Positions 29,301-53,520 of a stretch of DNA of 64,000 nucleotides are shown piece after piece. The stretch covers positions 5,518,001 through 5,582,000 of the forward strand of contig NC_092006.1 of NCBI RefSeq assembly GCF_044704955.1, written 5' to 3'. The position numbers were made by a program, and so were the translations under genes. The notes under the pieces were generated by a model. That model did not search any database. It worked only from the letters and a program-made list of their open reading frames with translations, and was not told the origin of the DNA. Origin of the DNA: Pristiophorus japonicus. Lineage: Eukaryota. Positions within the stretch are counted from its first letter, which is position 1; each line of letters opens with the position of its first letter.

Positions 29301-30510
29301 TCAGAGGGTTGTAAATCTGTGGAATTCGCTGCCTCAGAGAGCTGTGGAAGCCGGGACATTGAATAAATTTAAGACAGAGATAGACAGTTTCTTAAATGAT
29401 AAGGGGATAAAAGTGCGGGCAGGGAAGTGGAGCTGAGTCCATGATCAGATCAGCCGTGATCTTATTAAATGGCGGAGCAGGCTCGAGGGGCCGTATGGCC
29501 TACTCCTGCTCCTATTTCTTATGTTCTTATCCACCTGGCCTGCTACCTTCAGGGATCTGTGGACCTGCACTCCAAGCTCCCTTTGTTCCTCTACACTCAG
29601 TGTCGTACCATTTAATGTGTATTCCCTTGCCTTGTTAGACCTCCCCAAATGCATTACCTCACACTTCTCCAGATTGAATTCTATTTGCCGCTGTCCTGCC
29701 CACCTGACCAGTTCATTTGGTGAGCCGCCTTCTTGAACCGCTGCAGTCCTTTTGGTGAAGGTACAGCCTTGACTTTATCGTAACTGTTTGGTTCAACTGC
29801 AGAGGGGCAGTTAACCACAGCCAACCACATGGACAAGCAATTAAGAAATTAAGCAATTAAGAAGCAAATGGTCTGTCGGCCTTTATTGCAAGAGGATTTG
29901 AGTATAAGAGTAAAGACATCTTACTGCGGTTATATCGGGCCCTGGTGAGACCACACCTGGAGTACTGTGCACAGTTTGGGTCTCCTTACATAAGGAAGGA
30001 TATACTTGCCATTGAGGGAGTGCAGCGAAGGTTCACCAGACTGATTCCTGGGATGGAGGGATTGTCCTATGAGGAGAGATTGAGTAGACTGGGCTGATAT
30101 TCTCTGGAGTTTAGAAGAATGAGAGGTGATCTCATTGAAACATACCAGATTCTGAGGGGGCTTGACAGGGTAGATGCAGGGAGGGTGTTTCCCCCGGGCT
30201 GGGGAGTCTAGAACCAGGCGTCACACAGTCTCAGGGTAAGGGGAAGGCCATTTAGGACTGAGATGAGGAGGAATTTCTTCACTCAGAGGGAGGTGAATCT
30301 TTGCAATTCTCTGCCCCAGAGGGCTGTGGAGTCTCAGTCGTTGAGTATATTCAAGGCTGAGATCGATAGATTTTTGAATATTAAGGGAATCGAGGGATCG
30401 GGCGGGAAAGTGGAGTTGAGGTCGAAGATCAGCCGTGATCTTATTGAATGGCGGAGCAGGCTCGAGGGGCCGAATGGCCGACTCCTGCTCCTATTTCTTA
30501 TGTTCTTGTG
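26352..30510. mobile_element. Cluster of nested and inverted CR1 fragments
   Basis: RT fragments on both strands. The + copy at 28810-29530 sits inside a - copy, with CTTATCC repeated at both junctions. Confidence 0.85.
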
Positions 30511-33500
30511 TTAAACATACCTCTTTGACAACCTGTCATAATATCCCCTTATGTGGCTTGGTGTCAAATTTTGTGTCATTTACGCTCCTGTGAAGCACCT
30601 TCTCCATTAAAGGCGCTGTATAATTAAAATATTGCATTTATATAGCGTCTTTCATGACCATTGGGAGTCCCAAAGTGCTTTACTGTCAATGAAATACATT
30701 CGGAGTGCGGTCACGTTTGTAATGTGGGAAACACGGCAGACAATTTGTGCACAGCAAGCTCCCACACACAGCGATGTGATAATGACCCGGATCATCTGTT
30801 TTAGTGATGTTGGTTGAGGGATAAATATTGGCCCCAGGACACCGGGGAGAACTCCCCCTGCTCTTCTTCCAATAGTGGCCCCGGGATCTTTTACATCCAC
30901 CCGAGAGGGCAGATGGGGCCTCGGTTTAACGTCTCATCCGAAAGACGACAACTCCGACAATGCGGTGCTCCCACAGTACTGCCCCTCAGACAGTGCGGCA
31001 CTCCCTCAGTACTGCCCCTCCGACAGTGCGGCGCTCCCTCAGTACCGCCTCTCCGACAGTGCGGCGCTCCCTCAGTTCTGCCCCTCCAACAGTGCGGTGC
31101 TCCCTCAGTACTGCCCCTCCGACAGTGCGGCGCTCCCTCAGTCCCGCCCCTGTAACAGTGCGGCTCTCCCTCAGTACCGACCCTCCGACAGTGCGGCTCT
31201 CCATCAGTACCGCCCCTCCGACAGTGCGCCGCTCCCTCAGTACTATCCCTCTAACAAGATTAAGGCAACTTTCTGAAATCAGGAGGAGGAGAGAGAGGCG
31301 GGGAGGTTTGGGGAGGGAGTTCCAGAGCTTGGGGGCCCAGACAGCTGAAGGCACGGCCACCGATGGTGGAGCGATGGAAATCGGGGGATGGGCAAGCGGG
31401 CAGAATTGAAGGAGGGCAGAGACCTCGGTGGGGGGGGGGGGCGGGGTTTGTCGGTGACGGAGATAGGGAGGGAGAGGTGGCCAGGAGGGAGTTGAACACG
31501 AGGACAAGAATTTTTAAAAGCGGGGCGATGATGGACTGGCTTGTAACAAGGATTATGAGGTTGTTCCTGGATGGTCACGAGAATTCTCTGTCTTTCTCGC
31601 CCCCTCCCCCCCCGCCCTCACCGCCCAGCATCTACGTCTGGGTTACGGTCAAGCTGCCCCGATACAAACTCCAGGAGACTGAGATCACACAGCTCTGGTG
31701 GGGCTTGAAACAGCGCAGCATGCCTTCAGAGTGGGGAGGGGGGGGGGTGTGTGGGGCGGAGAGATGGGGTCTTGGTGTGGGGGTGAACATCGCTACAGCT
31801 GCACTCTGTGGCTTTCTGAGTCAAACAGGCCTGACTCCAAGCGACATAGACAGAGCCATTGTCTCGGTGAATAAAGGCCCAATTCACAGCCCTGTTATTG
31901 AGCACAGTGCTACATTAATTTACAGCGCACAAACTGCCCTTGTTGTCCACAATGTGAACCTCACAGCGGTGCGTTTCAAGCAGATGCCGCACACTGAATG
32001 AGCGAAATTTAAACCGAAGGGACGTCTCGGCCGAGGGAGCCGCTTTTATGTTCGGACTACCTTCCAGAGGGAGTGAACCCGAGTCAGATCCTCGAAGCAC
32101 AGGCGCAAAAAAACCGCAAGAAACAGGAGTCGGCCATTCGGCCCCTCGAGCCTGCTCCGCCATTCAATGAGATCGCGGCTGATCCGATCATGGACTCAGC
32201 TCCACTTCCCCGCCCGCTCCCCATAACCCTTCACTCTCTCATCGTTCAAAAATCTGCCGGTCTCCACCTTGAATATATTCGATGACCCCAGCCTCCACAG
32301 CTCTCTGGGCCAGAGAATTCCACAGGTTCACCAGATTCATCTCCGTCTTAAACGGGCGGCCCCTTATTCTGGGACCATGTGCCCCTCGTTCTAGATTCCC
32401 CCACGAGGAATTTTCTTTTGCTCCGGGGCAGAAACCGCCCGATGCATACCGTGATGACGTCGTTGTCAAATAGAGACATCATTATTATTCACAGGGAGAA
32501 AGATTGCAAAGTGCCGCAGTACAGCGGGACCTGGGGGTACTTGTGCATTGAAACACAAAAGGATAGTATGCAGGTACAGCAAGTGATCAGGAAGGCCAAT
32601 GGTATCTTGGCCTTTATTGCAAAGGCGGATGGAGTATAAAAGCAGGGAAGTCTTGCTACAGTTATACAGGGTATTGGTGAGGCCACACCTGGAGTACTGC
32701 GTGCAGTTTTGGTCTCCATATCCACCCTGTCCAGCCCCTTCAGAATCTTGTACATTTCGATAAGCTCACCTCTCATTCTTCTGAACTCCGATATGTACAG
32801 GCCCAACTTGCTCAACCCTTTCCTCATAAGACAACCCCCTCATCTCCGGAATCAACCGAGTGAGCCTTCTCTGAACAGCCTCCAATGCAAGTATATCCCT
32901 CCTTAAATACGGAGACCAAAACTGCACGCAGTACTCCAGCTGTGGCCTCACCAATACCCTGTACAGCTGTAGCAGGACTTCTCTGCTTTTATACTCTGCC
33001 CCCTTTGCAATAAAGGCCAAGATTCCATTGGCCTTCCTGATCACTTGCTGTACCTGCATACTAACAGTTTGTGTTTCATGCACAAGTGCCCCCAGGTCCC
33101 TCCGCACTGCAACACTTTGCAATCTTTCTCCCTGTGAATAATAATGATGTCTCTATTTGACAGCGACGTCATCACGGTATGCATCGGGCGGTTTCTGCCC
33201 CGGAGCAAAAAAAAATTCCGGGAACGCCGGGACTGAAGGCGTGCCGGGCGGTGACAGGGATAGCTTCACGGGGGCTAAACATGGCGTCCGTGTGCTAGCG
33301 GGGCGCCCGTTAAAGGGGAGGTGGCATGCCGCGAGCCATAGCCCCCTTGAACGTGGGCGGTCCGTGCCTCCATTTGCCATCTCCCGGCGCCGTGCTTGAG
33401 TTGCCCGGGGCTGGGGGGGGGCTGATTTGCATGGCTCCCTCCCCCGCTCCCCGGTGGCCCAGGGAGAGCGCTGCTGGGCCTTCCCCTTTAATGACGGGAG

Positions 33501-33679
33501 CGACATAGACATCGACATAGATAATAGGTGCAGGAGTAGGCTATTCGGCCCCTCGAGCCTGCACCGCCATTCAATATGATCACGGCCGATCCCCTATCAC
33601 AACTATCTCATATTCCCGCTTTTTCCCCATACCCCTTGATGCCTTTTGTTATCTATGCGGACTATATCTATACGCTCCG

Positions 33680-36600
33680 TGTCGAGGAAATATTTAGCTT
33701 AAATTAACTCAGGCGGAGACTTTCAGAAGTGCACTTCGAGAGAATTTATTTTAAAAAGCGAGATATATCTCAGAGAGCCTGCTTGGACCGTACCAAGGCA
33801 AAAACTCTGCCGTACAGGCAAATTGTCCCTATCTTTATACAGAAATTGAATACAGAAATATAAAAGGAATCTTATTCATTAGTCCCGCGAGTACAAAGGT
33901 CGTCTCGGGAGGTACACACTCTATCAACCGAGACTCCAGGATGGTATGTTGCCTCCCTGGTGCAAGGGTCAAGGATGTCTCGGAGCGGGTGCAGGACATT
34001 CTGAAATGGGAGGGAGAACAGCCAGTTGTCGTGGTGCACATTGGTACCAACGACATTGGTAAAAAAAGGGATGAGGTCCTACGAAAAGAATTTAAGGAGC
34101 TCGGAGCTAAATTAAAAAGTAGGACCTCAAAAGTAGTAATCTCGGGATTGCTACCAGTGCCACGTGCTAGTCAGAGTAGGAATCGCAGGATAGCGCAGAT
34201 GAATACATGGCTTGAGCAGTGGTGCAGCAGGGAGGGATTCAAATTCTTGGGGCATTGGAACCGGTTCTGGGGGAGGTGGGACCAGTACAAACCAGACGGT
34301 CTGCACCTGGGCAGGACCGGAACCAATGTCCTAGGGGGAGTGTTTGCTTGTGCTGTTGGGGAGGAGTTAAACTAATATTGCAGGGGGATGGGAACCTATG
34401 CAGGGAGACAGAGGGAGACAAAAATGAGGCAAAAGCAAAAGACAGAAAGGAGATGAGGAAAAGTGGAGGGCAGAGAAACCCAAGGCAAAGAACAAAAAGG
34501 GCCACTGTACAGCAAAATTCTAGAAGGAAAAAGGGTGTTAAAAAAGCAAGCCTGAAGGCTTTGTGTCTTAATGCAAGGAGTATCCGCAATAAGGTGGATG
34601 AATTAACTGTGCAAATAGATGTTAACAAATATGATGTGATTGGGATTACAGAGACGTGGCTCCAGGATGATCAGGGCTGGGAACTCAACATCCAGGGGTA
34701 TTCAACATTCAGGAAGGATAGAATAAAAGGAAAAGGAGGTGGGGTAGCATTGCTGGTTAAAGAGGAGATTAATGCAACAGTTAGGAAAGACATTAGCTTG
34801 GATGATGTGGAATCTATATGGGTAGAGCTGCAGAACACTAAAGGGCAAAAATCGTTAGTGGGAGTTGTGTACAGACTTCCAAATAGTAGTAGTGATGTTG
34901 GGGAGGGCATCAAACAGGAAATTAGGAGTGCATGCAATAAAGGTGCAGCAGTTATAATGGGTGACTTTAATATGCACAGAGATTGGGCTAGCCAAACTGG
35001 AAGCAATACGGTGGAGGAGGATTTTCTGGAGTGCATAAGGGATGGTTTTCTAGACCAATATGTCGAGGAACCAACTAGGGGGGAGGCCATCTTAGACTGG
35101 GTGTTGTGTAATGAGAGAGGATTAATTAGCAATCTCATTGTGCGAGGCCCCTTGGGGAAGAGTGACCATAATATGGTGGAATTCTGCATTAGGATGGAGA
35201 ATGAAACAGTTAATTCAGAGACCATGGTCCAGAACTTAAAGAAGGGTAACTTTGAAGGTATGAGGCATGAATTGGCTAAGATAGATTGGCTAATGATACT
35301 TAAGGGGTTGACTGTGGATGGGCAATGGCAGACATTTAGAGACCGCACGGATGAATTACAACAATTGTACATTCCTGTCTGGCGTAAAAATAAAAAAGGG
35401 AAGGTGGCTCAACCGTGGCTATCTAGGGAAATCAGGGATAGTATTAAAGCCAAGGAAATGGCATACACATTGGCCAGAAATAGCAGCGAACCTGGGGACT
35501 GGGAGAAATTTAGAACTCAGCAGAGAAGGACAAAGGGTTTGATTAGGGCAGGGAAAATGGAGTACGAGAAGAAGCTTGCAGGGAACATTAAGGCAGATTG
35601 CAAAAGTTTCTATCGGTATGTAAAGTGAAAAAGGTTAGTAAAGACAAACGTAGGTCCCCTGCAGTCAGAATCAGGGGAAGTCATAACGGGGAACAAAGAA
35701 ATGGCAGACCAATTGAACAAGTACTTTGGTTCAGTATTCACTAAGGAGGACACAAACAACCTTCCGGATATAAAAGTGGTCAGAGGGTCTAGTAAGGAGG
35801 AGGAACTGAGGGAAATCTTTATTAGTCGGGAAATTGTGTTGGGGAAATTGATGGGATTGAAGGCCGATAAATCCCCAGGGCCTGATGGACTGCATCCCAG
35901 AGTACTTAAGGAGGTGGCCTTGGAAATAGCGGATGCATTGACAGTCATTTTCCAACATTCCATTGACTCTGGATCAGTTCCTATCGAGTGGAGGGTAGCC
36001 AATGTAACCCCACTTTTTAAAAAAGGAGGGAGAGAGAAAGCAGGGAATTATAGACCGGTCAGCCTGACCTCAGTAGTGGGTAAAATGATGGAATCAATTA
36101 TTAAGGATGTCATAGCAGCGCATTTGGAAAATGGTGACATGATAGGTCCAAGTCAGCATGGATTTGTGAAAGGGAGATCATGCTTGACAAATCTTCTGGA
36201 ATTTTTTGAGGATGTTTCCAATAAAGTGGACAAAGGAGTACCAGTTGGTGTGGTATATTTGGACTTTCAGAAAGCTTTCGACAAGGTCCCACACAGGAGA
36301 TTAATGTGCAAAGTTAAAGCACATGGGATTGGGGGTAGTGTGCTGACGTGGATTGAGAACTGGTTGTCAGACAGGAAGCAAAGAGTAGGAGTAAATGGGT
36401 ACTTTTCGGAATGGCAGGCAGTGACTAGTGGGGTACCGCAGGGTTCTGTGCTGGGGCCCCAGCTGTTTACATTGTACATTAATGATTTAGACGAGGGGAT
36501 TAAATGTAGTATCTCCAAATTTGCGGATGACACTAAGTTGGGTGGCAGTGTGAGCTGCGAGGAGGATGCTATGAGGCTACAGAGTGACTTGGATAGGTTA

Positions 36601-37692
36601 GGTGAGTGGGCAAATGCGTGGCAGATGAAGTATAATGTGGATAAATGTGAGGTTATCCACTTTGGTGGTAAAAACAGAGAGACAGACTATTATCTGAATG
36701 GTGACAGATTAGGAAAAGGGAAGGTGCAACGAGACCTGGGTGTCATGGTACATCAGTCATTGAAGGTTGGCATGCAGGTACAGCAGGCGATTAAGAAAGC
36801 AAATGGCATGTTGGCCTTCATAGCGAGGGGATTTGAGTACAGGGGCAGGGAGGTGTTGCTACAGTTGTACAGGGCCTTGGTGAGGCCACACCTGGAGTAT
36901 TGTGTACAGTTTTGGTCTCCTAACTTGAGGAAGGACATTCTTGCTATTGAGGGAGTGCAGCGAAGATTCACCAGACTGATTCCCGGGATGGTGGGACTGA
37001 CCTATCAAGAAAGACTGGATCAACTGGGCTTGTATTCACTGGAGTTCAGAAGAGTGAGAGGGGACCTCATAGAAACGTTTAAAATTCTGACGGGTTTGGA
37101 CAGGTTGGATGCAGGAAGAATGTTCCCAATGTTGGGGAAGTCCAGAACCAGGGGTCACAGTCTAAGGATAAGGGGAAAGCCATTTAGGACCGAGATAAGG
37201 AGAAACTTCTTCACCCAGAGAGTGGTGAACCTGTGGAATTCTCTACCACAGGAAGTAGTTGAGGCCAATTCACTAAATATATTCAAAAGGGAGTTAGATG
37301 AAGTCCTTACTACTCGGGGGATCAAGGGTTATGGCGTGAAAGCAGGAAGGGGGTACTGAAGTTTCATGTTCAGCCATGAACTCATTGAATGGCGGTGCAG
37401 GCTAGAAGGGCTGAATGGCCTGCTCCTGCACCTATTTTCTATGTTTCTATGTTTCTATCTTTCTATGTTTCTATCTGTCCCTGCATAGTTTCTTTCTGTT
37501 CACAGTCTGATAAGCAGAATAAAAGGAGACTCCCTTTTAATACCAGATGGTCATTTAATTGCATCTCTAAGTTTCAAGGCTAAAAAAGCGTGGCTATTTT
37601 TCTAGTCCTATTATTTCTTTAAGCATAGCAAAAACAGAATTTAACCCTTCCCTTTTCCATAAGCCATAGATTCATAGATTCTTTCTTCCACA
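33680..37692 (-). repeat. 3' LTR (33680-33925 + ~37476-37692), interrupted by a CR1
   Basis: The two halves join to match the 5' LTR. Polypurine tract AAGGAGGGAAT on - at 37693-37703. Confidence 0.93.
33926..37475 (+). mobile_element. Young CR1 LINE (C-terminal ORF1 esterase + ORF2 with a single stop at 35626) inserted in the ERV 3' LTR
   Basis: ORF1 HIGTND (SGNH esterase-like). ORF2 pieces 34219-35628 and 35701-37359 are in frame. TCTATC is shared at both junctions. Confidence 0.95.
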
Positions 37693-37738
37693 ATTCCCTC
37701 CTTGTTGATCTTTTTATTTTTTAAATCAACACAATTTC

Positions 37739-39549
37739 CTATATTCTCTTCTTGAGCAAAAGGGGGTTTATTACTTGACTAATTACATTTTTTAATTTTA
37801 TCCACATTCCGCAAAGGATTATTAATAATACAAGCATAACCACACCTACGATTACTATGGGGTGTATAGCAAGCTTCAGTACTGCTGTAGCTTTTGGGGA
37901 CCATCCGGTAAACACATCCCACCAGTGGTGTACTGTCAAAGAGGTGACTTAATCTGCGATTCTCACTAGCTGCCCCTTCTTGTAACTCATTTCGACTCTA
38001 AATTGGTGGATGTCTCTGCCTTGCTTTGACAGAGCTTCCTCAATTTTCTTGTCATTACGTATCAAATTGTGCAGTCTGGTCAAATTAATTACAGGGGGTA
38101 AGGGTTCAATCTTGTGCATAGACAGATATTTTTCTACATTTTGCCATTGCCCAAAGGTATAAGTTCTTTTTACTTCTGGGTCATACAGGGTGTAGACTCC
38201 TCTCACGCATTTATTAATGGGGGGCCTATACAAAATTCCATCCAGATAGACAGGTTTATTTCCTGTCACACAGATCTCATTCTGTCCTATTTCCGTTATA
38301 TCAGTGTCATTTGTTAGCTTTAATTCCCATTTACATAGTCCAATGGAGTGCTGCAGTGAGCATGGTTCGTGTATGGCGGTCTGATAGGGACATACCATTC
38401 CGAATGGCCACCTAGCACATCCCCTCTGGTGATGTGTCATATTCTTCTCATCGACCCAATCTCCTTTAAATTCTGGGTCCCAGAAGTTCTGTCCAAACAG
38501 CTGGGGCATTACTTGGAACTGACACCAAATTTCTTTTCGTGTCATACTTACTATCTCTCCAGTAACGTTACATCCTTTTGAATTACAACTGGTATATTTT
38601 TTTTGAGGGCTAATGGTTAAATTAAGAAGCTTATCTCTTTTGTTAATTTCCAGCAACCTTTCCCATGTGTTAGCATGGAAGGATAATATTTTCCTTTCTA
38701 ACTCGGCTCTTAATAGCTGTCTGATCATTTCTTTAAACAGGCAATGGGTGTACTTGTTTACTCCCTGTTGTTCTTTCATTAGGTTCTCTATTTCCTTCTC
38801 TATCCCTTCATTCTGTTGCCAGGTCATTTCATTTATGACGTAACCTGATATCTGTAATTGCTGTAATCCTTCATCCCAGGCATTTCTGATCTTTATATCT
38901 TCCCCGACCAGTCCCCCGACGGCCTGGATTTTATTTTGTAGGGTCTCGATATCCATGGAGTTCAATGCTCCTATTCCTGCTCCCACTGCACCTAACACAG
39001 TCTCTAATACACCCCGTTTCTTTCTTTGGGGGCTTTCTTTTTCAAAAGATACCTTAACACTGGTTGTGTGGCAACCATCTTCTTTCTTTGGGGGATATTC
39101 ACCGGGGTGTTATTCATGCACAACATCCGCTGCCCTTCTACCATACTTGTAAATGAATAACGGAGGACGTCTTTTCTCTCGTCCGGCCCTCCTATGTACC
39201 CCCATCTCTTGTTTTTCCCTGTGCTCCAGGTACACTTCATCCACACATCGGCCTGGTATTCTATGAACAACTGATACCCTTTCCCCAATATAAATTGGAA
39301 CTCCCCTCTTTCTTCCTTCATTCCACATGCCTCACATCATGCCGTAAAATTCCCTACCTTACAACTTTGGCCTACTGGGCATATAAAATTGCCTTGCTGC
39401 CTCATATTATTACTTCTTTCCCATACCATATTTCCCTTCCATACTCTTCCTTCTTTTAGGACTTCTTCCTCCTGCCGGGAGTTCCCTGTTGCTAAAATGA
39501 TCAGTATACCTAACGTCCATTTATAATTTTTCCAAGAGTCCCTTCCCAT
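37739..39549 (-). pseudogene. env: ERV env (disrupted)
   Basis: Signal-like WTLGILIILATG, furin site RKKR followed by fusion peptide GVLETVLGAVGAGIGALNS (~39025-38950), Cys-rich ectodomain, HHWWDVFTGWSP, C-terminal TM. Confidence 0.82.
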
Positions 39550-39765
39550 CTTCCCTTTCTTGTTTCTTTCTATACCACTCTTGAATTAAGTCGGTACAAT
39601 AACAACACGTCCACACGATAGTAACAGTGACCCAAATAATAAAGGCCCAAACTGGCACACAAATGAGCTCTGACATCCATCCGTGAATTTTGGGCAATAA
39701 TTTCAAGTCCAAATATTTAATACAAGAGCAGGTACAGTTCTTTCAGCGAGAAGATGGCTGTTTTC

Positions 39766-42700
39766 TTAGTCGGGCGACCGTAGTACGTCCTGGCTCAATG
39801 CCTTTTCCTTCGGCTGTAATTCGTCGGGGAAATGATATTTACAGCGGGTTGCATGCACCCAGTTCGGGTGCTTTTCCAACTTCAAAGCGGTTCGTGTTGT
39901 GAGAATTATCTGATACGGTCCTTTCCACCTAGGAGAAAAGGATTCTTTATTTAATGTTTTTACTAACACTTGATCTCCAGGTCTGAAAGGTGCATATTTC
40001 CTTCCGACGGGGCACCTGTGTCTGCTTTATTTGTTCATGCAGCCTTCTTGCTATTTCACACATGGCCTGAGCATACTTTAGTGATTTTTCATCATTCCAA
40101 ATTAATGCTATTTTTTCATCTGCCAGTGGTGGTTTTACGCCAGTAGGCATTGGTCTTCCCAATAAGGCTTCATGTGGTGTCAACCCAGTGTTTCGGTTTT
40201 TCTGGTTTCTCATTGTATACAATACTCATGGTAAGGCATCTGGCCACTTCAGTCCAGTCTCCTGACATACCTTGGTAAGGGTAGATTTTATTATCCCATT
40301 TACTCTTTCTACCATTCCCGAGGACTGTGGCTGATATGGTATATGTAACTTCCACTGGAACCCTAACGCTTCTGCAAGGTTTTGCACTATTTTTCCTGTG
40401 AAGTGTGTTCCCCTGTCACTGTTGATTCCCAAAGGTATCCCATATCTTGGTACTATTTCTTTAAATCGAATTTTTACTACTGTTCGGGCATCGTCTCTCC
40501 TAGTGGCGTACGCTTCTACCCACCTTGTGAACATATCTACTATGACTAATAGATACTTAAGACCTGATACTGGAGGCATGTGGACAAAGTCAATTTGCAA
40601 ATTTTCAAAGGGCATACTTGGTTGGGGTAGATGATCATATCCAGCAGGTGTTTTACCTCTGTTATTTTGTTGACAAATTTGGCATGTCCTAGCAACTTTC
40701 TCAATTACTACTGTTATTCCTGGTGCATACCACTGTGCATTGATAGCATGTATCATCCCTCCTTTGCCCATGTGAGCCTGACCATGTGCTAGGCGAGACA
40801 GGGGCAAAAATAGAGATCTAGGGCAAACAGTTCGCCCATCAGGGTGATACCAAATGTCGTTTTTTAGAAAACAATCCTGGTTTTCCCAAGTTCTTCCTTC
40901 CTGCATGGTAACTTGTTGTTGGGCTGTTTTAAGTTGTTGGATGTCAAGTACCTGTGGAGGGGAACTGAGACTGCTTGAAGGCAGTCTGCCTGTGCCGAAG
41001 CGATCTGTTTGGCTGCCTCGTCAGCCCTCCTATTTCCTACTGATACTCCATCCTCACCGGTTGTGTGAGCTGCACATTTGATAACGGCTACCTTACTTGG
41101 CAACTGAATGGCGTCTAATAGATTAAGCAACAGTTGTGAGTGCTTAATATGCTTTCCACCAGAGGTGATAAAGCCTCTGTTTTTCCACAGTTGTCCAAAA
41201 TCATGGAACCACACCGAATGCATATCTAGAATCAGTATAGATATTAGCAGTATGATCTTTAGCTATTATACAAGCTCTAGTGAGGGCAAACAATTCAGCA
41301 GCCTGAGCCGAGGTTCCGGGAGGCAGGGCGAATGCTTCAACAGTTTTGTGGGGATTTACAATAGCATAGCCTGCCAAAAACAAATCATCCGACGGCCTAT
41401 GTGATGATCCATCCGTATAGAGAATAAGATCAGGATTGTCCATGGGCTCTGTGAGCAAATCTGGTCTTGGTAAGGTGGCTATTTCCACCGTTAACAGACA
41501 ATCATGCTGGTCTGGATCCTCTACTTCTTTAGCAGGAAGAAAGGTGGCTGGGTTCACTACCGGTGCGCGTCGAACGGTATAGTTAGGGTGTGACAGTAGT
41601 AATACTTCATAACCTGTTCTTCGAGACGCTGTAAAGTGTTGTGTGGCAGCTGAATTCAAAAGTAATAACACAGCATGGGCTGTAATGACAGTACATGGAT
41701 GATCCAAAACAATAGGTACCGACTTCTCCACCATGACCGCAGTAGCAGCTACAGCACGTAGACACGCTGGCATTCCCCTTACTACTGGAGGCAGCAAAAC
41801 CGAATAATAAACAACTGGTCTATCTCCCCCACCATGTTCTTGGGTTAGTACTGCTGTTGCAAATCCTTCTTTCTCATTCACATACATCTGAAAAGGTTTA
41901 CCATAATTCGGAAGTCCCAACGCCGGAGCATTAGTAATGTCTTTCTTTAACTGTTTAAATGCCTCCTCTCTCTCTGGGGTCCACTCCACCTTGGGTGGGG
42001 CATCATTTAGAGCAGCTGATCTTAGGACCGCATCCCATTCTCAATAATCGGGGATCCATTGTCTACAGTACCCAACCATCCCCAAAAATGACAAGATATC
42101 CTTCTTTGTCTTTGGTATGGTGGCCCTTTGAATTGTCTGAATTCTTTCTGGTCCTAGCTGCCTCTGCCCTTGAGATATGTAAAAACCCAGGTACTGGACT
42201 TGAGTCTGACAAAATTGTAACTTTGGTAACGACACTCGGTGCCCTCTTTCACATAGGTGCTGTAACAGTTTCAGGGAATCTTGCATGCACCTGTATCCGT
42301 GGCTAGAAGCCACAAGCAAATCGTCCGCATACTGCAGCAGTACAGACTGGTCCGATAATGAACAGTCTTCGAGGTCTCTTTTTACTGCTGCTGCATATAC
42401 TGCGGGGCTTTCGGTGTATCCTTGGGGCAACCTGGTCCATGTGTACTGCTGCTTCTTGTGGGTGAAAGCAAACAGATACTGACTTTCTTGATTTAATGGG
42501 ATGGAGAAAAAAGCTGAACACAGGTCTATTACAGTAAAGACAGTTGCTGTTGGTGGTATAGCCGATAGTATAATGTTGGTGTCCGGGACCACAGGGGTGA
42601 TAGGGACTACTATCTTATTAATAGCTCTCAGATCTTGCACAAATCTCCATTCATTCGGCCTAATAACCTTTGGTATGGGCAGTATCGGAGTGTTACACGG

Positions 42701-43926
42701 GCTCTGTGTCTTTTCTAAAACTCCTTGTTCCAACAATGCAGAAATGACTGGCTCTATCCCATTTTCTGCCTCTGGAGGCAGTCTGTATTGCCTAATGCTT
42801 GGTAACACGGCGTTCTTTATCAATTGTACCCGATGGGGTACTGCAGAGTGTACTTGCCCAACATGATTCTTATGCTTTGCCCAAAGTTCAGAAGATACTT
42901 GATTCAATGCCATTGGCAGCTTAGGACTTGGTTGTTCCGGGGGTTGCTGTTTTTCAAAAGTGGAGGCATGTTTTTTACCTTTCCACTGGAGAATCCCCCT
43001 GTTGTGGGTGATAAAGTCTATCTGAACATTTTGCAATTTTATTACTGCCCAAGGTTGATAGCCGTGTTGCTGTTTTTCCTTTTCTATTTCTACAATCATC
43101 GGACCCATATCTTTAGGTTTCGCTGGCGGTTTTACAGCCAAGGTCAGATGGGGTGTCGAGTTCGCTTCTCTAAACCGCTGTTGCTGTAAGGGTGTCAATC
43201 GATGGCTACCCCCAATCCTTCTGGTCCAAAATAAATGCGGGGCGTAGCTTCTACTATTTCTTCTCTATTTAAAAAGGATTGTACCAGACACTGGTAAGTT
43301 TCAGCTTTTTGGCGAGTGTACCAGGCTGTACAGTGAAGCTGAACTGCCTCAAAGCTTGTCAAAATTATATACATCAATTCTTCAGTATTAGAGTCAAATT
43401 TAGCTTTTAAGTTTTGTATAACTTCATGTATCAAGGGGGAATAGAAGTTGCCATTCAATTGCCAACAATAGAGGGCAGCCTTTTCTTTGTTATCCTCCCT
43501 TTTCTCTTCTTTAATCCCATTAAAGAACTGATGAATATTATTTGGAGGGAGCTGCATTTACATTCCTTCCTTTGTGCAATAAATTGTGGCTCCTAGTTTT
43601 CACAAAGTCTGTCTTCCCAATAAAGGGAGCGGTGTTGTTTTAGAGACTATCAAAGTCTCATCATTAACCGATTGTCCTTCAATTATCAATTTGGTAGGTT
43701 CAGATAAAAATTCTTTCATGGGGATACCGGCCACACCCAAACTTAAGACGGTGGTGTTGCTTACAGGTAATCCCACAGAGGATGGTACAGAAGACATAGT
43801 AGCACCGGTATCCACCAGGAACTTCACATAAGTGTCTCCTACTTTTACTACTGCCAGAGGGTTTTCTTCTATGTCCGCTGATAGGCGGGGTGCTGCCGCC
43901 TGTACCACTCAGCCTCCGGGGCATCC
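39766..43926 (-). pseudogene. pol: ERV pro-pol (protease, 2H phosphoesterase-like insert, RT, RNase H, integrase), disrupted
   Basis: FLVDTGA; QDLRAIN, LPQGYTESP, YADDLL; YTDGSS, AQAAEL, YTDSRY; HHCC, QIDF, SDRGTHF, SSGMVER, WKGPY. Multiple stops and frameshifts. Confidence 0.93.
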
Positions 43927-45636
43927 CTATGCTGATTGGTGCGGGTTGGGGTTAGAGAACGAAAACTGAGGGGCCAATGAAGGTGGAGGTTCGGGGAAAT
44001 CCCCTTTGTAACCCTCCACCCTGTTTCGGGGGGCATCTGCAATCGCGAGCCCAATGCCCTTTTCTTCCGCAATTTCTACACTCATCTTGAGAGCGGTCTC
44101 TTTGGGGCCACTGTCCTCTCCCTCTTCCTCGTCCTCATCCCCCAAACCCTCCTCTATTATTCTGCGCTTGTCCTCTTCCTTTTTGCTGATAGTACTGACC
44201 TGCTGTTTTAGCTTTGTTTTCCTTATAGATAAATAGTCCCTCCCTATCCATGTTGGCCAGTACTGTGATTGTTTCTTTCCAACTTTTTCCTTGCCAGTCC
44301 AAGACCGTAATTTTGTATGTTCTTGCTTGTTGTGGCAACATACAATTTAACAAGGTTTGCACTGCCAAAGGTTCATTTTGATCCATTGGTATTCCTGCAT
44401 GCTCGTCCCAACTATTTTTCCATCTGCCTGCAAAATCTATCATCGATTCTTCTGCTTTCTGCAAGCAGCGGGTGACTTCCCCTATATCTCCATGCTTTTT
44501 AGCTCCCTTTAATATGGCATCCTTGCCCCGGTGCTGTAACCAATGTTCCCGGGACTCATTTCCTTCTATGTCATTATTTTCCCGCCAATCTCCATTTTCG
44601 CCGGCGGGTATAGGCAACATATCTTTTACCCCTTGACAAGAGGACCCATATGCTGCCTGCAGTAATAATTTCACATCTCTGGGGAGGGGGTTATAAATGG
44701 TACAGGTTTGCTCAAGCCAGTTGTGAAAGGCTACTGGCTTCTTAACAGGATTAGGGGCGGCTGATATCATATCTCTGGCTTCTCCAGGGGACCATGGTTT
44801 TAAAACTGCCGTAGTTCCTATCATTACCCTAGGATTTTGGCCGACGGGAGTTTGGGAAGTAGAGTCAGCGGCTTCTCTTTGAGCCGCTTGCATTCTTGTT
44901 GTTACCCCAGATCTGTGGTCTATGCCCTCTTCTCCAGAGGCTCTGGTTTCCCCTGACCCAGATGCTCCCGGGTCTCCTCCATCGGCTCCTCTACTTGCCC
45001 CTCCTTCCCCGTTTTCATTTTCTAGTGGGTTTTGTGGATTTTCTCGTCGCCTAGAGGCCTGATCCAGCTGAGCGGCCACTATTTCTATAATCTCCTGCCA
45101 ATCATCCGGCTTGGTGGTTGGAAGACGGGGGTATAAGCCGACAGGGGAAGCGGTCATAACCGGGGCACTCGGGGGGCTGTAAGAGGGAGGGGGCTTCTCC
45201 TTACTATCCTCCTCCTTCTTTTTATTTTTAGGGGGCTGGTGCCTCTTTGCCACCTCTGTCCATTTTTTAAAACAATTCTCCATATAATCTTTATCCCAAG
45301 TGGGGTCCCCTGTCCCATTTTTGGTGGTCTGTCTCCATTCCTCAATTAAGGACAATTTAAAACTTCCTCCATATGGCCAATCCCCATCAGACCAACCGTA
45401 CAAATCGCTACTAAACGTTACCGCGTATCTGTCGTCTCCTGTGTCTTTAATTACAGTGTCCGCCGGCGAGCCGGGCGGCACAATGGGATCTCCTACCTTC
45501 TCTCGTTGCTTTGCTACCTTACGATTCTTTTCTCAGTCTTAGGATGTACTTTCATTCTTTCAGTCGAGAGGTCGTCCTTCTTTCCTTTTCTAGGAGCTGG
45601 GCGCGAGCGCCCTGCTCGACTAGAGCCGTTTCCCAT
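43927..45636 (-). pseudogene. gag: ERV gag (disrupted)
   Basis: MGNGSS myristoylation-type start at 45636, frameshift at ~45520, 448-aa ORF 44135-45481, internal TGA, RG repeats, zinc knuckle CRNCGRKGHWARDC, terminal TAG at 43927. Confidence 0.85.
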
Positions 45637-45952
45637 TCTGCCGGGTGCAACGTCTCGCGATCTTTTCTGAAATGAGAGTTAGGACAATCCTACAAAATAT
45701 ACAATAATTTACAAAGCGCTCACCGGTGTTCTCTTTTCTGCTCAGCTCGGGGTCTCCTTTCTCCTTTTGTTATTTTAGCTTCTTTGCGGTAGCTACCTTA
45801 TGCCTCACCCCCCCCCAGGGGATCTCGGCGGCCCGTCCCCCTTTTGCTAGGACGGCCTTGGCACCTTCCTCCTTTCAGCTAGGAAGGTCCTTAAAATTCC
45901 TCTTTTCTCTTTAAAAGTTAAATTTAGTTCTTTTGGATCTCGTTTTTTAGAG

Positions 45953-45971
45953 ATCCTGCCGGACTACGCCA
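45953..45971 (-). promoter_or_regulatory. Primer-binding site complementary to the 3' end of tRNA-Ser
   Basis: + strand ATCCTGCCGGACTACGCCA matches the vertebrate tRNA-Ser 3' end ATCCTGCCGACTACGCCA with one extra G, 5 nt from the LTR. Confidence 0.8.
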
Positions 45972-45976
45972 GAATC

Positions 45977-46439
45977 TGTCGAGGAAATATTTAGCTTAAA
46001 TTAACTCAGGCGGAGACTTTCAGAAGTGCACTTCGAGAGAATTTATTTTAAAAAGCGAGATATATCTCGGAGAGCCTGCTTGGACCGTACCAAGGCAAAA
46101 ACTCTGCCGTACAGGCAAATTGTCCCTATCTTTATACAGAAATTGAATACAGAAATATAAAAGGAATCTTATTCATTAGTCCCGCGAGTACAAAGGTCGT
46201 CTCGGGAGGTACACACTCTATCTGTCCTTGCATAGTTTCTTTCTGTTCACAGTCTGATAAGCAGAATAAAAGGAGACTCCCTTTTAATCCCAGATGGTCA
46301 TTTAATTGCATCTCTAAGTTTCAAGGCTAAAAAAGCGTGGCTATTTTTCTAGTCCTATTATTTCTTTAAGCATAGCAAAAACAGAATTTAACCCTTCCCT
46401 TTTCCATAAGCCATAGATTCATAGATTCTTTCTTCCACA
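45977..46439 (-). repeat. 5' LTR (463 bp)
   Basis: TG...CA ends. On -, TATAAA at 46131-46136 and AATAAA at 46042-46047. Three mismatches to the 3' LTR by eye. Confidence 0.95.
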
Positions 46440-47419
46440 GGCACTCCCTCAGTACCGCCCCGACAACAATGCGGCGCTCCCTCAGTACTGCCCCTCCGAC
46501 ACTCCCGCCCCTCTGACGGTACTGCTGTTCCCTCAGTACCGCCCCTCCGACAGTGCGACGCTCCCTCAGTACTGCCCCTCCGACAGTGCGACGCTCCCTC
46601 AGTACTGCCCCTCCGACAGTGCGACGCTCCCTCAGTACTGCCCCTCCGACAGTGCGGCGCTCCCTCGGCACCGCCCCTCCGACAGTGCGACGCTCCCTCA
46701 GTACTGCCCCTCCGACGCTCCCTCGGCACCGCCCCTCCGACAGTGCGACGCTCCCTCGGTACTGCCCCTCCGACAGTGTGACGCTCCCTCAGCACTGCAC
46801 TGGAGTGTCAGCATAAATTTTTGTGCTCAAGTCTCTGGAGTGGGACTTACAACATTCTGATTCAGAGGTGAGCATGCTGCCCACTGAGCCATGAGTAAAC
46901 CAGATGAGTTTATACGACAATCCAGTAGTTTTATGGTCACTATTACAGAGTTGAACTGTTAATCCCAGATTTATTAACTGAATTTAAATTCCCCAGCTGC
47001 CCTGGTGGGATTTGAACTCTGGTTTGCGGATCATTATTCCGGGCCTGGGGATTAGTAACGCAGTAATTTACCACTACGCTGACGGGTCTGCCTTCTCTTA
47101 CAGGCAGCGTCGATGGCAGTATCGATACTGTGAGGAGTTCCCCACTACCGTTGTCTGATTGGGGCTGCACTGTGACGCGGGAGAATTCAATAAAAGAGCG
47201 ATAAGTCCGGTGGCCAAACGAGTCTCGTCTTTTTTTGGGTTGCTGTCCGATGGACATCTTACGCCGTTGTCCGCTCGGAACACGGAAGAGCACTTCAGCG
47301 ACTGGGAGAGTTTGACACCGAGCCCAGGGTAGCGGTTGGTGGGAGAGTGGGGGTGTGGCACCTGGAGTGGGCCGGGGACTGAGCGAAGGTTCGCGAGAGC
47401 TGGGATTTCAGGGGGACCG

Positions 47420-49090: not shown

Positions 49091-49320
49091 TTGGTGCGAA
49101 TTGGGACACAGGGCGACAGAGTTTTGTTGGCCTCATGTTTAAGGAGGTAGAACGTGGGAGGCCAGGAGAGCATTGGAATATAAGTGTAAGGGCGAAGATG
49201 AAAACTCCCAATCAGTACCCAGGTTAAAGAAATGGCCCCTTTGAGGGATGTGAATGGCTCCTCCTGGACTCTGCTCTCTGTTGATGCCCTTTGGTGTGAA
49301 GCTACCGCACAGCCGCTGCC

Positions 49321-51685
49321 TCTCCAGCAGGTGGCGCTGTAACATCCCCTCCTTCTCCAGCAGGTGGCGCTGTAACATCCCCTCCCTCTCCAGCAGGTGG
49401 CGCCGTAACATCCCCTCCCTCTCCAGCAGGTGGCGCAGTAACATCCCCATTCACTCCAGCAGGTGGCGCCGTAACAGTCCCATTCTCTCCAGCAAGTGAC
49501 GCTGTAACATCTCCTCGCTCTCCAGCAGGTGGCGATGTAACCCCCATTCTCTCCATCAGGTGGTGCTGCAACATCCCCTGCCTCTCCAGCAGGTGGCGCT
49601 TTAACCCCCATTCTCTCCTTCAGGTGGTGCTGCAACATCCCCTCCCTCTCCAGCAGGTGGCGCTGTAACATTCCCTCCCTATCCAGCAGGTGGCGCTGAA
49701 ACATCCCCATTCTCTCCAGCAGGTGGTGCTGTAACATCCCCTCCCTCTCCAGCAGGTGGCGCTGTAACCCCCATTCTCTCCAGCAGGTGGTGCTGTATCA
49801 AGGATCAAGGGGTATGGCGAGAAAGCAGGCATGGGGTACTAAAGTTGCATGTTCAGCCATGAACTCATTGAATGGCGGTGCAGGCTCGAAGGGCCGAATG
49901 GCCTACACCTGCACCTATTTTCTATGTTTCTATGTATCATCCCCTCCCTTTCCAGCAGGCGGCGCTGTAACATCCCCCATTCTCTCCAGCAGGTGAAACA
50001 TAGAAAATAGGTGCAGGAGTAGGCCATTCGGCCCGTCGAGCCTGCACCACCATTCAATAAGATCATGTCTGATCATTCACCTCAGTACCCCTTTCCTGCT
50101 TTCTCTCCATACCTCTTGAACTCTTTAGCTGTAAGGGCCACATCTAACTCCCTGCTGAATATTTCCAATGAACTGGCATCAATAACTCTCTGCGGTAGGG
50201 AATTCCACAGGTTAACAACTCTCTAAGTGAAGATGTTTCTCCTCATCTCAGTCCTAAATGGCTTACCCCTTATCCTCAGACTGTGACCCCTGGCTCTGGA
50301 CTTCCCCAACATCGGGAACATTCTTCCTGCATCTAACCTGTCCAGTCCCGTCAGAATTTTATATGTTTCTATGAGATCCCCTCTCATCCTTCTGAACTCC
50401 AATAAATAAAGGCCCAGTTGATTCAGTCTCTCCTCATATGTCAGTCCAGCCATCCCAGGAATCAATCTGGTGAACCTTCGCTGCACTCTCTCAATAGCAA
50501 GAACGTCCTTCCTCAGATTAGGAGACCAAAACTGAACACAATATTCCAGGTGAGGTCTCACCAAGGCCCTTTACAACTGCAGTAAGACCTCCCTGCTCCT
50601 ATACTCAAATCCCCTAGCTATGAAGGCCAACATACCATTTGCCTTCTTCAGTGCCTGCTGTACCTGCATGCCAACTTTCAATGGCTGATGAACCATGAAA
50701 CCCAGGTCTCGTAGAGGATTTGAGAATAGGAGCAGGGACGTCTTACTGCAGTTGTAGAGAGCCTTGGTGAGGCCACACCTGGAATATTGTGTTCAGTTTT
50801 GGTCTCCTAATCTGAGGAAGGATGTTCTTGCTATTGAGGGAGTTCAGCGAAGGTTCACCAGACTAATTCCCGGGATGGCAGGACTGACATATGAGGAGAG
50901 ACTGGATCGACTGGGCCTGTATCCACTGGAGTTTAGAAGAATGAGAGGGGATCTCATAGAAACATATACAATTCTGACGGGACTGGACAGGTTAGATGCA
51001 GGAAGAATATTCCCGATGTTGGGGAAGTCCAGAAGCAGGGGTCACAGTCTAAGGATAAGGGGTAAGCCATTTAGGACCGAGATGAGGAGAAACTTCTTCA
51101 CTCAGAGAGTTGTAAACCTGTGGAATTCTCTACCACAGAAAGTTGTTGAGGCCAGTTCATTAGATATATTCAAAAGGGAGTTAGATGTGGCCCTTACGGT
51201 CAAAGGGATCAAGGGCAATGGAGAGAAAGCAAGAAAGGGGTACTGAGGTTGAATAATCAGCCATGATCTTATTGAATGGCGGTACAGGCTCGAAGGGCCG
51301 AATGGCCTGCTCCTGCACCTAATTGCTATGTTTCTATGTAACATCCCCTCGCCCTCCAGCAGGTGGCGCTGTTAACACCCCCATTCTCTCCAGCAGGTGG
51401 CGCTGTAACATCCCCATCCCTCTCCAGCAGGTGGTGCTGTAACATCCCCATTCTCTCCAGCAGGTGGCGCTGTAACATCCCTCCTTCTCCACCAGGTGGT
51501 GCTGTAACATCACCTCCTCCAGCAGGTAGCACTGTAACATCCCCCCCTTCTCCACCAGGTGGCGCTGTAACATCACCTCCTCCAGCAGGTGGCACTGTAA
51601 CATCCCCCCCTTCTCCACCAGGTAGCGCTGTAACATCAGCTCCTCCAGCAGGTGGCGCTGTAACATCCCCTCCCTCTCCAACAGG
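49321..51685 (+). repeat. ~33-bp tandem repeat containing CCAGCAGGTGGCGCT (CTCF consensus), ~27 units, split by CR1 insertions
   Basis: Units at 49321-49797, 49935-49995 and 51340-51685. Confidence 0.9.
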
Positions 51686-53520
51686 ACTCCTGTCGGAACC
51701 TCAGCACAGAAGGAGGCCATTCAGCCCGTGCCGGCTCTCTGTAAGAGCACTTCAGCTAGTCCCACTCCCCTGCCCTTTCCCGTAGCCCTGTAGATTGTTT
51801 TTTTCCTTCAGGTACTTATCCAACTCCCTTTTGAAAGCCACGATTGAGTCTGCCTCCAGCACCCTCTCAGGCAGCACATTCCAGATCCTAACCACTCGCT
51901 GCGGAAAAAGTTATTGCTCCTGTTACCTTTGGTTCTTCTGCCAATCGCCTTAAATCTGTGTCCTCTGGTTCTCAACCCGTCCGGCGATGTGAACAGTTTC
52001 TCCCTCTGTACTCTGTCGAGACCCCTCATGACTTTGAACGCCTGTATCAAATCTGCTCTCAACTTTCTCTAGTCTAAGAAGAACAACTGCCAACTGAGCT
52101 GGTGATAAACTTCTTGAGTGCTGTCGGAGCTGCAACTCATGCAGGCAAGTGACGAGTGTTCCATCACACTCCTGACTTGTGCCTTGTAGACGGCGGAAAG
52201 GCTTTGGAGAATCAGGAGGTGAGACACTCGCCGTAGAATACCCAGCCTCTGACCCGCTCTTGTTTACACAGTATTTATGTGACTGATCTGGTTGTATATT
52301 CGATGTAATTCTGTGCAAACCATTTGCAATGTGGCTAGGCGGAGTCACTGCACGAGTTCCCAGCCCCTGTACATAGAAACATAGACAATAGGTGCAGGAG
52401 TAGGCCATTCGGCCCTTCGAGCCTGCACCACTATTCAATAAGATCATGGCTGATCATGCAACTTCAGTACCCCATTCCTGCTTTCTCTCCATACCCCTTG
52501 ATCCCTTTAGCCGTAAGGGCCACATCTAACTCCCTTTTGAATATATCTAACGAACTGGCCTCAACAACTTTCTGTGGTAGAGAATTCCACAGGTTCACAA
52601 TTCTCTGAGTGAAGAAGTTTCTCCTCATCTCGGTCCTAAATGGCTTACCCCTTATCCTTAGACTGTGACCCCTGCTTCTGGACTTCCCCAACATCGGGAA
52701 CATTCTTCCTGCATCTAACCTGTCCAGTCCCGTCAGAATTTTATATGTTTCTATTAGATCCCCTCTCATTCTTCTAAACTCCAGTGAATATAAGCCTAGT
52801 CGATCCAGTCTTTCTTCATATGTCAGTCTTGCCATCCCGGGAATCAGTCTGGTGAACCTTCGCTGCACTCCCTCAATAGCAAGAATGTCCTTCCTCAGAT
52901 TAGGAGATCAAAACTGAACACAATGTTCCAGGTGTGGCCTCAACAAGGCCCTGTACAACTGCAGTAAGACCTCCCTGCTCCTATACTCAAATCCTCTCGC
53001 TATGAAGGCCAACATGCCATTTGCATTCTTCACCGCCTGCTGTACCTGCATGCCAACTTTCAATGACTGATGTACCATGACACCCAGGTCTCGTTGCACC
53101 TCCCCTTTTCCTAATCTGTCACCATTGAGATAATATTCTCTCTTCCTGTTTTTGCCCCCAAAGTGGATAACCTCACATTTATCCACATTATACTGCATCT
53201 GCCATGCATTTGCCCACTCACCTAACCTGTCCAAGTCACCCTGCAGTCTCTTAGCATCCTCCTCACAGCTCACACTGCCACCCAGCTTAGTGTCATCTGC
53301 AAACTTGGAGATATTACACTCAATTCCTTCATCTAAATCATTAATGTATATTGTAAATAGCTGGGGTCCCAGCACTGAACCCTGCGGTACCCCACTAGTC
53401 ACTGCATGCCATTCTGAAAAGGACCCGTTTATCCCGACTCTCTGCTTGCTGTCTGCCAACCAGTTCTCTATCCACGTCAGTACATTACCCCCAATACCAT
53501 GTGCTTTAATTTTACACACT
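49996..53520. mobile_element. CR1 fragments (- 49996-50710, + 50711-51338, - 52371-53520)
   Basis: ORFs 50223-50564, 50764-51246, 52464-52868 and 52908-53519. Confidence 0.88.

What the first reader, a model, noticed from the sequence alone, without database searches (positions are those of the whole stretch)
49321..51685. Tandem array of ~27 same-orientation CTCF consensus motifs
Seen: each ~33-bp unit contains CCAGCAGGTGGCGCT. Several variants (CCACCAGGTGGCGC, CCAGCAGGTGGCAC) stay within the consensus while the spacers vary more. Established: this matches the CTCF core CCASYAGRKGGCRS, and clustered same-orientation sites act as loop-extrusion super-anchors, e.g. at the 3' end of mammalian Igh. 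The core also contains the E-box CAGGTG. Inference: a minisatellite-built insulator or boundary lying between Ig-superfamily receptor genes.
Basis: partly seen in the sequence, partly recalled or inferred. Interest (0 to 1): 0.7.

Follow-up and report, generated by a model that had tools for sequence, protein, structure and literature searches.

The report
CTCF-motif minisatellite edging shark receptor duplications
A 33-base DNA repeat carrying the docking motif of the genome-folding protein CTCF sits at the left edge of each duplicated block of shark immune-receptor-like genes, where it would likely bind CTCF and act as a one-way chromatin barrier, but binding is untested and the motif shows no clear sign of being kept by selection.

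Summary
The motifs are real. There are 27 same-strand CTCF-core units, but not one continuous array: three pieces (15+2+10) split by LINE fragments, 887 of 2,365 bases. Only 10 of 27 carry the exact 15-mer quoted. The array recurs 12 times on contig C32, once per ~110-kb unit holding three germline-joined VJ-C1 receptor-like genes. Five pairs are letter-identical over ~10 kb (possible false duplication), leaving 7 distinct copies. The array starts 2.9 kb inside the unit's left end and faces a strong reverse site 51 kb away (intact in 8 of 12 units). The core is not significantly better conserved than the spacer, its CpG has decayed, and the upstream ZF9-11 motif is missing. At least 11 other loci carry minisatellites with the same core and unrelated spacers, most at gene starts. 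Best reading: a tandemised strong CTCF site, likely bound, likely a one-way barrier, copied passively with the gene block. The Igh super-anchor role is unsupported, since these genes are already joined. Mouse DXPas34 is a precedent, and this scan already noted a paralogous copy and similar arrays in other sharks. Interest 0.35.

The parts
49319..49797 (+). CTCF-core minisatellite, sub-array 1 (15 units, 31-33 bp)
   Evidence: this sub-array varies from 12 to 37 units among the 12 paralogous arrays
49798..49936 (+). CR1-type LINE 3'-end fragment inserted in the array
   Evidence: 87-93% matches to other LINE ends in the window; same 172-bp core-to-core gap in 12 of 12 paralogs
49937..49995 (+). 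sub-array 2 (2 units, the second cut by a LINE)
49996..50712 (-). CR1-type LINE 3' fragment, minus strand
   Evidence: 86-91% to other copies in the window; insert shared by 12 of 12 paralogs
50713..51335 (+). CR1-type LINE 3' fragment, plus strand
   Evidence: about 88% to other copies in the window
51337..51685 (+). sub-array 3 (10 units, 30-34 bp, partly alternating 30/33)
46444..46798 (.). left end of the ~110-kb duplicated unit, in a common 33-bp satellite, 2.9 kb left of the array
   Evidence: homology with the cluster's unique left flank starts here; same start within about 200 bp in 4 of 4 junctions tested
27301..46498 (.). 19.2-kb junction segment (LINEs, ERV-like element) between successive units
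   Evidence: 99.4% identical to the junction of unit 1; no long match in the flank stretches compared
14284..14622 (+). germline-joined VJ exon of an A-type receptor-like gene
   Evidence: Pfam V-set; J-like FGxG in the same exon; spliced contig in run X6
14714..15019 (+). C1-set exon of the same gene
   Evidence: Pfam C1-set; spliced contig in X6
16258..16374 (+). transmembrane-like exon of the same gene
   Evidence: spliced contig in X6; matching hydrophobic stretch in P0001

Best explanation
The feature is a minisatellite whose 33-base unit holds a strong CTCF core motif, likely made by head-to-tail copying of one site, and it would likely bind CTCF and act as a one-way barrier to loop extrusion at the left edge of a block of three VJ-joined receptor-like genes. 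Shown from sequence: unit structure, single orientation, LINE interruptions shared by all paralogs, position 2.9 kb inside the left end of the duplicated unit, one copy per unit, and a reverse site 51 kb to the right just upstream of the B-type gene. Inferred order of events: (1) one site was tandemly amplified, as at many other loci in this genome; (2) LINE ends inserted; (3) the whole block was duplicated, likely by unequal crossing-over between common 33-bp satellites, carrying the array along; (4) sub-array 1 kept changing in length. Inferred mechanism: CTCF bound in + orientation would stop cohesin arriving from the right. Each array would then anchor a loop over the next B-type gene, pairing with the reverse site or with the reverse 41-bp array at the cluster's right end. 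The number of units is probably in excess and drifting rather than selected. My odds: bound in some tissue about 0.75; measurable barrier about 0.5; unit number or core maintained by selection about 0.2.
For: Strong motif scores: 22 of 27 units >=15 bits, about 1.5 hits per million random positions at that level (recalled matrix). Across 12 loci the majority units share C2, G7, G8 and G10-G16 in 12 of 12 and vary at positions 1, 3-6 and 9, while the spacers are unrelated to the window's (10 of 10 comparisons, P 0.18-0.51). The genome has 324 hits for a 16-base core pattern and 0 for the reversed control. The unit's only CpG is at C12; inhibition by methylation is dominated by C2 (PMC10325916, passages). 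Skate TAD borders carry oriented CTCF motifs (PMC10115646, passages). Boundary strength rises with the number of strong sites (PMC11828424, passages; modelled at 180-bp spacing, not 33). Array-to-unit geometry. Reverse site intact in 8 of 12 units, 51-58 kb right of the array. Passive carriage: flanks and LINE inserts differ by 0-2.9% between paralogs, against 8-15% unit-to-consensus divergence inside the array.
Against: No binding, accessibility or Hi-C data were available. No significant excess conservation of the core (alleles per position p=0.37; matrix damage of observed changes p=0.20; damage versus spread rho 0.05); the core is less variable than the spacer in only 5 of 8 arrays. 32 of 85 distinct units have lost the core CpG, 30 by TG/CA change, which points to germline methylation. 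No upstream ZF9-11 motif: at most 6 of 10 matches at canonical spacing in any of the 27 units; PMC12885311 (passages) reports that insulator activity needs it. The reverse partner is deleted in 4 of 12 units, and a reverse site of that strength is expected about once per unit from flank density (10 sites >=18 bits in 418 kb). 11 of the 12 loci compared were found with core-bearing queries, so the shared core is partly ascertained; the unbiased test gave 1 of 31 repeat families against 0.056 expected (P=0.054). The position at the unit edge reflects one ancestral event, noticed after the fact (about 5% by chance).
Confidence: 0.55

Rival explanations
1. Inert minisatellite: the unit matches CTCF because a once-functional or chance site was caught in a tandem duplication, but the array now lies in methylated, LINE-rich chromatin, is not bound and does nothing.
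For: No selection signal; CpG decay; three LINE insertions tolerated; unit number ranges 24-49 between near-identical paralogs; no CpG island beside it (o/e mostly 0.2-0.5 around the array); 150 minisatellite arrays in 574 kb of this region; no upstream motif.
Against: Most units still score as strong sites although the array is older than the duplications. With 20 or more redundant sites, selection per site would be too weak to see, so the negative test has little power. C12 methylation alone need not block binding.
Confidence: 0.27
2. Selected boundary system: every duplicated receptor triad carries its own strong boundary, and the forward arrays with the reverse array at C32:6.05 Mb form a protocadherin-like layout that balances or randomises which receptor copy a cell expresses.
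For: 12 forward arrays, one per unit, and a reverse 41-bp array about 48 kb beyond the cluster's right end; array at the unit's edge; tandem CTCF sites balance promoter use in Pcdh and Igh (PMC7087399, passages); duplications that include a boundary make neo-TADs (PMC8371409, passages); one A-type gene is spliced in run X6.
Against: One-per-unit and same orientation follow automatically from tandem duplication. The arrays are 33-45 kb from the genes, not at promoters as in Pcdh. The 6.05-Mb array is weak (median 12.3 bits) and abuts another gene's GC-rich start. No shared enhancer was identified, and there is no selection signal.
Confidence: 0.12
3. E-box array: the repeated CAGGTG binds E2A-type activators or ZEB/Snail repressors (families recalled from memory) and works as a lymphoid enhancer or silencer rather than through CTCF.
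For: 23 of 27 units keep CAGGTG; the neighbours are antigen-receptor-like genes.
Against: The E-box is in the majority unit of only 6 of 12 loci of the class, whereas the GG.GGCGCTG part is in 12 of 12; the match to CTCF covers 14-19 bases, not 6.
Confidence: 0.06

Closest known systems
Mouse DXPas34 minisatellite at Tsix (PMC3149622, passages)
   Same: Minisatellite of 30-34-bp monomers, each with a CTCF motif; site number varies widely between species.
   Different: DXPas34 is CpG-rich and next to a promoter in the X-inactivation centre; this array has one CpG per unit, is far from promoters, and is repeated with a gene block.
Mouse 3'Igh CBEs, the 'super-anchor' (PMC10293834, passages)
   Same: Many co-oriented CTCF motifs at the edge of an Ig-superfamily locus.
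   Different: Ten elements at one end of a rearranging locus, pointing back into it, with tested roles in recombination. Here a minisatellite recurs in every unit of a cluster of already-joined VJ genes, with nothing tested.
Clustered protocadherin CTCF layout (PMC7087399, passages)
   Same: Repeated forward sites along a paralog cluster and reverse sites at its far end.
   Different: Pcdh sites are one or two per promoter and pair with enhancer sites; these are 24-49-unit arrays tens of kb from the genes, and no enhancer is known.
Core-plus-upstream insulator CTCF sites such as IL3 (PMC12885311, passages)
   Same: Strong ZF3-7 core.
   Different: No upstream motif at 5-6-bp linker spacing in this array; the C2056 arrays of this genome do have it (8 of 10 matches).
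Non-rearranging VJ-C1 genes (UrIg, PRARP, NKp30 as named in PMC12227049 and PMC10751288) - for the neighbours
   Same: Single-exon VJ domain followed by a C1 domain.
   Different: One C1 plus a transmembrane-like segment and a short tail, not three C1 and secreted as UrIg; family not assigned. The nearest named protein is an automatic 'Ig kappa light chain-like' entry from Pristiophorus japonicus, 93% identical.

Membership tests
Vertebrate CTCF binding site (core, ZF3-7) | Match to the core motif | tested here: met
   23 of 27 within 1 mismatch of the consensus; 22 of 27 >=15 bits with a recalled matrix
Vertebrate CTCF binding site (core, ZF3-7) | Occupied by CTCF in vivo | not testable with these tools
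   No run listed as ChIP, CUT&Tag or ATAC among the 7 returned
Vertebrate CTCF binding site (core, ZF3-7) | Core conserved above its surroundings | tested here: inconclusive
   Trend in the expected direction but not significant; 5 of 8 arrays; low power with redundant sites
Insulator-class CTCF site (core plus upstream motif) | CTGCAG-type motif at 5-6-bp linker distance | tested here: not met
   0-6 of 10 matches in the 27 units, 4 of 10 for the majority unit (spacing read from the IL3 oligonucleotide)
DXPas34-like CTCF minisatellite | Tandem 30-34-bp monomers, each with a CTCF motif | tested here: met
DXPas34-like CTCF minisatellite | CpG-rich and promoter-adjacent | tested here: not met
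   One CpG per unit, lost in 9 of 27; CpG o/e mostly 0.2-0.5 around the array; other members of the class do abut gene starts
Igh 3'CBE super-anchor | Cluster of co-oriented motifs | tested here: met
   27 of 27 on the + strand
Igh 3'CBE super-anchor | Lies at the 3' end of a rearranging locus and points back into it | tested here: not met
   Neighbours are VJ-joined exons; the array points away from the gene upstream of it and recurs in every unit
Igh 3'CBE super-anchor | Anchors loops and confines recombination | not testable with these tools
   Needs Hi-C and deletion
TAD boundary / neo-TAD edge | Duplicated segment includes the boundary element | tested here: met
   The unit starts 2.7-2.9 kb left of the array in 4 of 4 junctions tested
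TAD boundary / neo-TAD edge | Convergent partner site | tested here: inconclusive
   Present in 8 of 12 units but expected by chance from local density
TAD boundary / neo-TAD edge | Insulation in contact maps | not testable with these tools
   No Hi-C tool

The most novel reading that the evidence does not exclude
This shark expanded a non-rearranging VJ-C1 receptor family by duplicating a self-insulated module: a CTCF minisatellite at the very edge of the duplicated block gives each receptor triad its own domain. Array length (24-49 sites) acts as a tunable barrier strength, and together with the reverse array at the cluster's far end it sets which copy a cell expresses. More broadly, sharks would build boundaries genome-wide by tandemising CTCF sites.
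Probability: 0.15. Interest if true: 0.75.

Novelty: new member of a known kind. Interest (0 to 1): 0.35.

Why it matters
If bound, it is a natural series of near-identical loci that differ in the number of strong CTCF sites at 33-bp spacing (24, 25, 27, 45, 49) and in having or lacking a convergent partner. That makes it a direct test of how site number and tight packing set barrier strength, in a lineage where CTCF is known mainly from motif and Hi-C work. It would also show that a receptor cluster can grow by copying a gene block together with its boundary. If unbound, it is one of many GC-rich minisatellites and a warning that motif scans of shark genomes are inflated by them.

Tried and rejected
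Derivation from the abundant 33-bp satellite: the local likeness is not above shuffles (P=0.22; z=2.1 as one of 32 families); rejected. Common ancestry of spacers across loci: none of 10 comparisons significant. Coding or RNA role: the open frames over the array are repeat translations; no Rfam match at 46000-54000. No RNA holder was listed for the array, and runs X5 and X6 have no contig on it; neither is evidence on expression. Conservation in other species: only one organism holds near-identical sequence (4 of 7 listed runs, one study), and that search cannot see diverged copies; no related genomes are held. Link of the other arrays to antigen-receptor loci: the C8 array lies about 7.5 Mb from the nearest listed C1-set match (150 of 970 candidates scored), and several arrays abut ordinary gene starts; rejected as a general rule. 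An array at C32 4.563-4.566 Mb, implied by note e1-9811865, was not found. A full genome census was not achieved: pattern listings stop at 100 places (100 of 324 shown) and a three-copy pattern could not be run. Ohta et al. 2019 on VJ-C1 genes is not held, so the neighbours' family stays open. Pfam scans covered 150 of 377 and 150 of 830 candidate frames, some dropped as already scanned, so the flank gene lists are incomplete. No supplements were consulted.

Full report
Observation. The stretch 49321-51685 holds 27 units that begin with a CTCF-core-like 14-mer, all on the + strand. 23 of them match CCASYAGRKGGCRS with at most one mismatch; shuffled windows give 0.83 on average and never more than 3. 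I scored them with the JASPAR MA0139.1 matrix as I recall it, so the bit values are approximate: 22 of 27 reach 15 bits and 24 reach 12, and only two other places in the 64 kb reach 12. The array is in three pieces (15, 2 and 10 units) separated by CR1-type LINE ends, so 887 of 2,365 bases are repeat. Only 10 of 27 units carry the exact 15-mer quoted. Several variants leave the consensus. Contigs of DNA runs X1 and X3 cover the first sub-array; they may be the assembly's own sample.

Setting. The window is G000:C32:4,958,392-5,022,391 in a 5.9-Gb genome. The nearest named relative of the window's Ig gene is a Pristiophorus japonicus protein at 93%, so this is very likely a shark. The array recurs 12 times on C32 at 106-121-kb spacing, always on the + strand, with 24-49 units each. 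An exact 26-mer of it occurs 47 times in the genome, all in this cluster. Each unit carries three germline-joined VJ exons. The one in the window continues into a C1 exon and a transmembrane-like exon, and run X6 has a contig spliced across all three; X5 and X7 do not cover it. Five array pairs at an offset of 559,609 bp have no mismatch in about 10 kb each, so that block may be a false duplication; 7 copies are distinct, differing by 0.1-2.9% in flanks and LINE inserts. All 12 share the LINE inserts, so array and inserts are older than the duplications.

Geometry. Homology with the cluster's unique left flank starts at window 46,444, in a common 33-bp satellite 2.9 kb left of the array; 4 of 4 junctions tested agree. 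The array is therefore the first distinctive element of the duplicated unit. In the first unit it stands between PEX11- and dermatopontin-like exons and the receptor triad. It points away from the A-type gene 33 kb to its left and toward the next B-type gene. In the 112.6 kb up to the next array there is one strong motif, on the reverse strand, 51 kb away and just upstream of the B gene; it is intact in 8 of 12 units and deleted in 4. Sites of that strength occur 10 times in 418 kb of flank, so one reverse site per unit is not surprising. A weaker reverse 41-bp array lies at 6.05 Mb, beyond the cluster's right end, at another gene's GC-rich start. The edge position is one ancestral event, about a 5% coincidence if judged after the fact.

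Selection. Over 85 distinct units from the 12 arrays, core divergence is 0.082 and spacer divergence 0.151, but the spacer excess comes from a few spread variants. Distinct alleles per position are 1.75-1.79 versus 1.89 (p=0.37); observed changes are no milder for the matrix than random ones (p=0.20); damaging changes did not spread less. All indel columns lie in the spacer, where C-runs offer slippage. Units were cut by core match, which favours the core, and even so no signal emerged. In eight arrays tested one by one the core was less variable in 5 and more variable in 3. 32 of 85 units lost the core CpG, 30 by TG or CA change, which suggests germline methylation. That CpG is C12, and C2 methylation dominates inhibition (PMC10325916, passages), so methylation alone would not exclude binding. 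The upstream ZF9-11 motif, reported as needed for enhancer blocking (PMC12885311, passages; about 13% of sites, PMC5006368, passages), is absent at canonical spacing.

A class. DNA and pattern searches and one chance find gave 11 further loci with tandem units of 30-47 bp. Their majority units share C2, G7, G8 and G10-G16 with the window's in 12 of 12 loci and vary at positions 1, 3-6 and 9; spacers are unrelated in 10 of 10 comparisons. The E-box is in 6 of 12. Seven of the 11 abut GC-rich apparent gene starts (one confirmed by Pfam, the others named from recall); the window's array does not. Since 11 of 12 loci were found through the core, the sharing is partly built in. In 574 kb fetched without motif selection, 1 of 31 other repeat families reached 12 bits against 0.056 for shuffled matrices (P=0.054): suggestive only. 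The census is incomplete.

Mechanism. I commit to a tandemised strong CTCF site, likely bound and likely acting as a one-way extrusion barrier at the left edge of the ancestral receptor block, then copied passively with it (confidence 0.55). Steps shown: motif, orientation, position, history of inserts and duplication. Steps inferred: binding, barrier, loop partners. Oriented CTCF motifs mark skate TAD borders (PMC10115646, passages). Modelled insulation rises with the number of strong sites, though at 180-bp spacing (PMC11828424, passages); whether CTCF can occupy neighbouring 33-bp units at once is open. Rivals: an inert minisatellite (0.27), a selected Pcdh-like choice layout (0.12), an E-box array (0.06).

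Comparison with what is known. The closest kind is mouse DXPas34, a minisatellite of 30-34-bp monomers with CTCF motifs (PMC3149622, passages). The Igh 3'CBE analogy (PMC10293834, passages) fails on locus type and direction. The Pcdh layout (PMC7087399, passages) and neo-TADs (PMC8371409, passages) are analogies only. For the genes I read the outline, the first of 8 parts and passages of PMC12227049 and passages of PMC10751288; Ohta et al. 2019 was not held. Searches listed no paper whose title or abstract opening describes CTCF minisatellites in sharks; I saw listings only, and subscription journals are missing. The scan itself noted a paralogous copy in this cluster (e1-10291396) with the same verdict on selection, and similar arrays in other sharks. 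I saw these after forming my reading and count them as no independent support.

Verdict. A real feature and a new member of a known kind. What this pass adds is the array's place at the duplication edge, the partner site present in some units and deleted in others, and the likely false duplication. Interest 0.35; the self-insulated-module reading has probability about 0.15 and would deserve 0.75.

Noticed in passing
G000:C32 4,795,517-5,914,000 (loci L032-L041): Five array pairs at an offset of exactly 559,609 bp have 0 mismatches over 9,609-9,891 bp each, while other paralogs differ by 0.1-2.9%: probably a false duplication in the assembly, or a very recent one.
   Followed up: partly
G000:C32 4.74-5.99 Mb; window 14284-16374: 36 germline-joined VJ exons in 12 triads (B minus, A minus, A plus). 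A-type is V-C1-TM with a tail tyrosine motif (TMYAHL in P0001), spliced in run X6 but not covered in X5 or X7; B-type V is 41% identical to A. Flanking Pfam hits: p450, SCAMP, Ras family, PEX11 and dermatopontin-like on the left, HlyIII/PAQR on the right. From memory this resembles human 1q21-22, an MHC paralogon; not tested.
   Followed up: partly
L043, L045, L046, L051-L059, L067/L068: A class of at least 11 further CTCF-core minisatellite loci (periods 30-47 bp; up to about 130 copies at C8:170.31 Mb). Seven abut GC-rich apparent gene starts: a PXA-domain gene (Pfam) and others that look like SLC9A-, PRIM2- and SEH1L-type starts by recalled sequence. Orientation relative to the gene differs between loci. 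Many share a C-rich stretch just 5' of the core that the matrix does not explain.
   Followed up: partly
L051:30-5744, L052:4350-5126 (C2056): 32-bp arrays whose unit has the upstream ZF9-11-type motif at canonical spacing (8 of 10 matches) but a weaker core.
   Followed up: partly
G000:C32 5,058,679 and paralogs (L111-L122): Single strong reverse CTCF motif about 3.4-3.5 kb upstream of the B-type V exon; intact in 8 of 12 units and removed by the same deletion in 4 of 12.
   Followed up: yes
window 37900-46000, minus strand: ERV-like element with gag-, pol- and env-like frames interrupted by stops (RT domain), inside the 19.2-kb junction segment. Observed only.
   Followed up: no
window 1-14117: Inverted duplication between the divergent A-type genes, with long 28-bp satellites (2225-4242 and 11403-13284) in opposite orientation.
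   Followed up: no
window 59146-59712: hAT transposase C-terminal fragment.
   Followed up: no
window 24951-26358 and 46529-46798: Both ends of the duplicated unit fall in or beside copies of the region's commonest 33-bp satellite (78 of 150 arrays), suggesting unequal crossing-over between them.
   Followed up: partly
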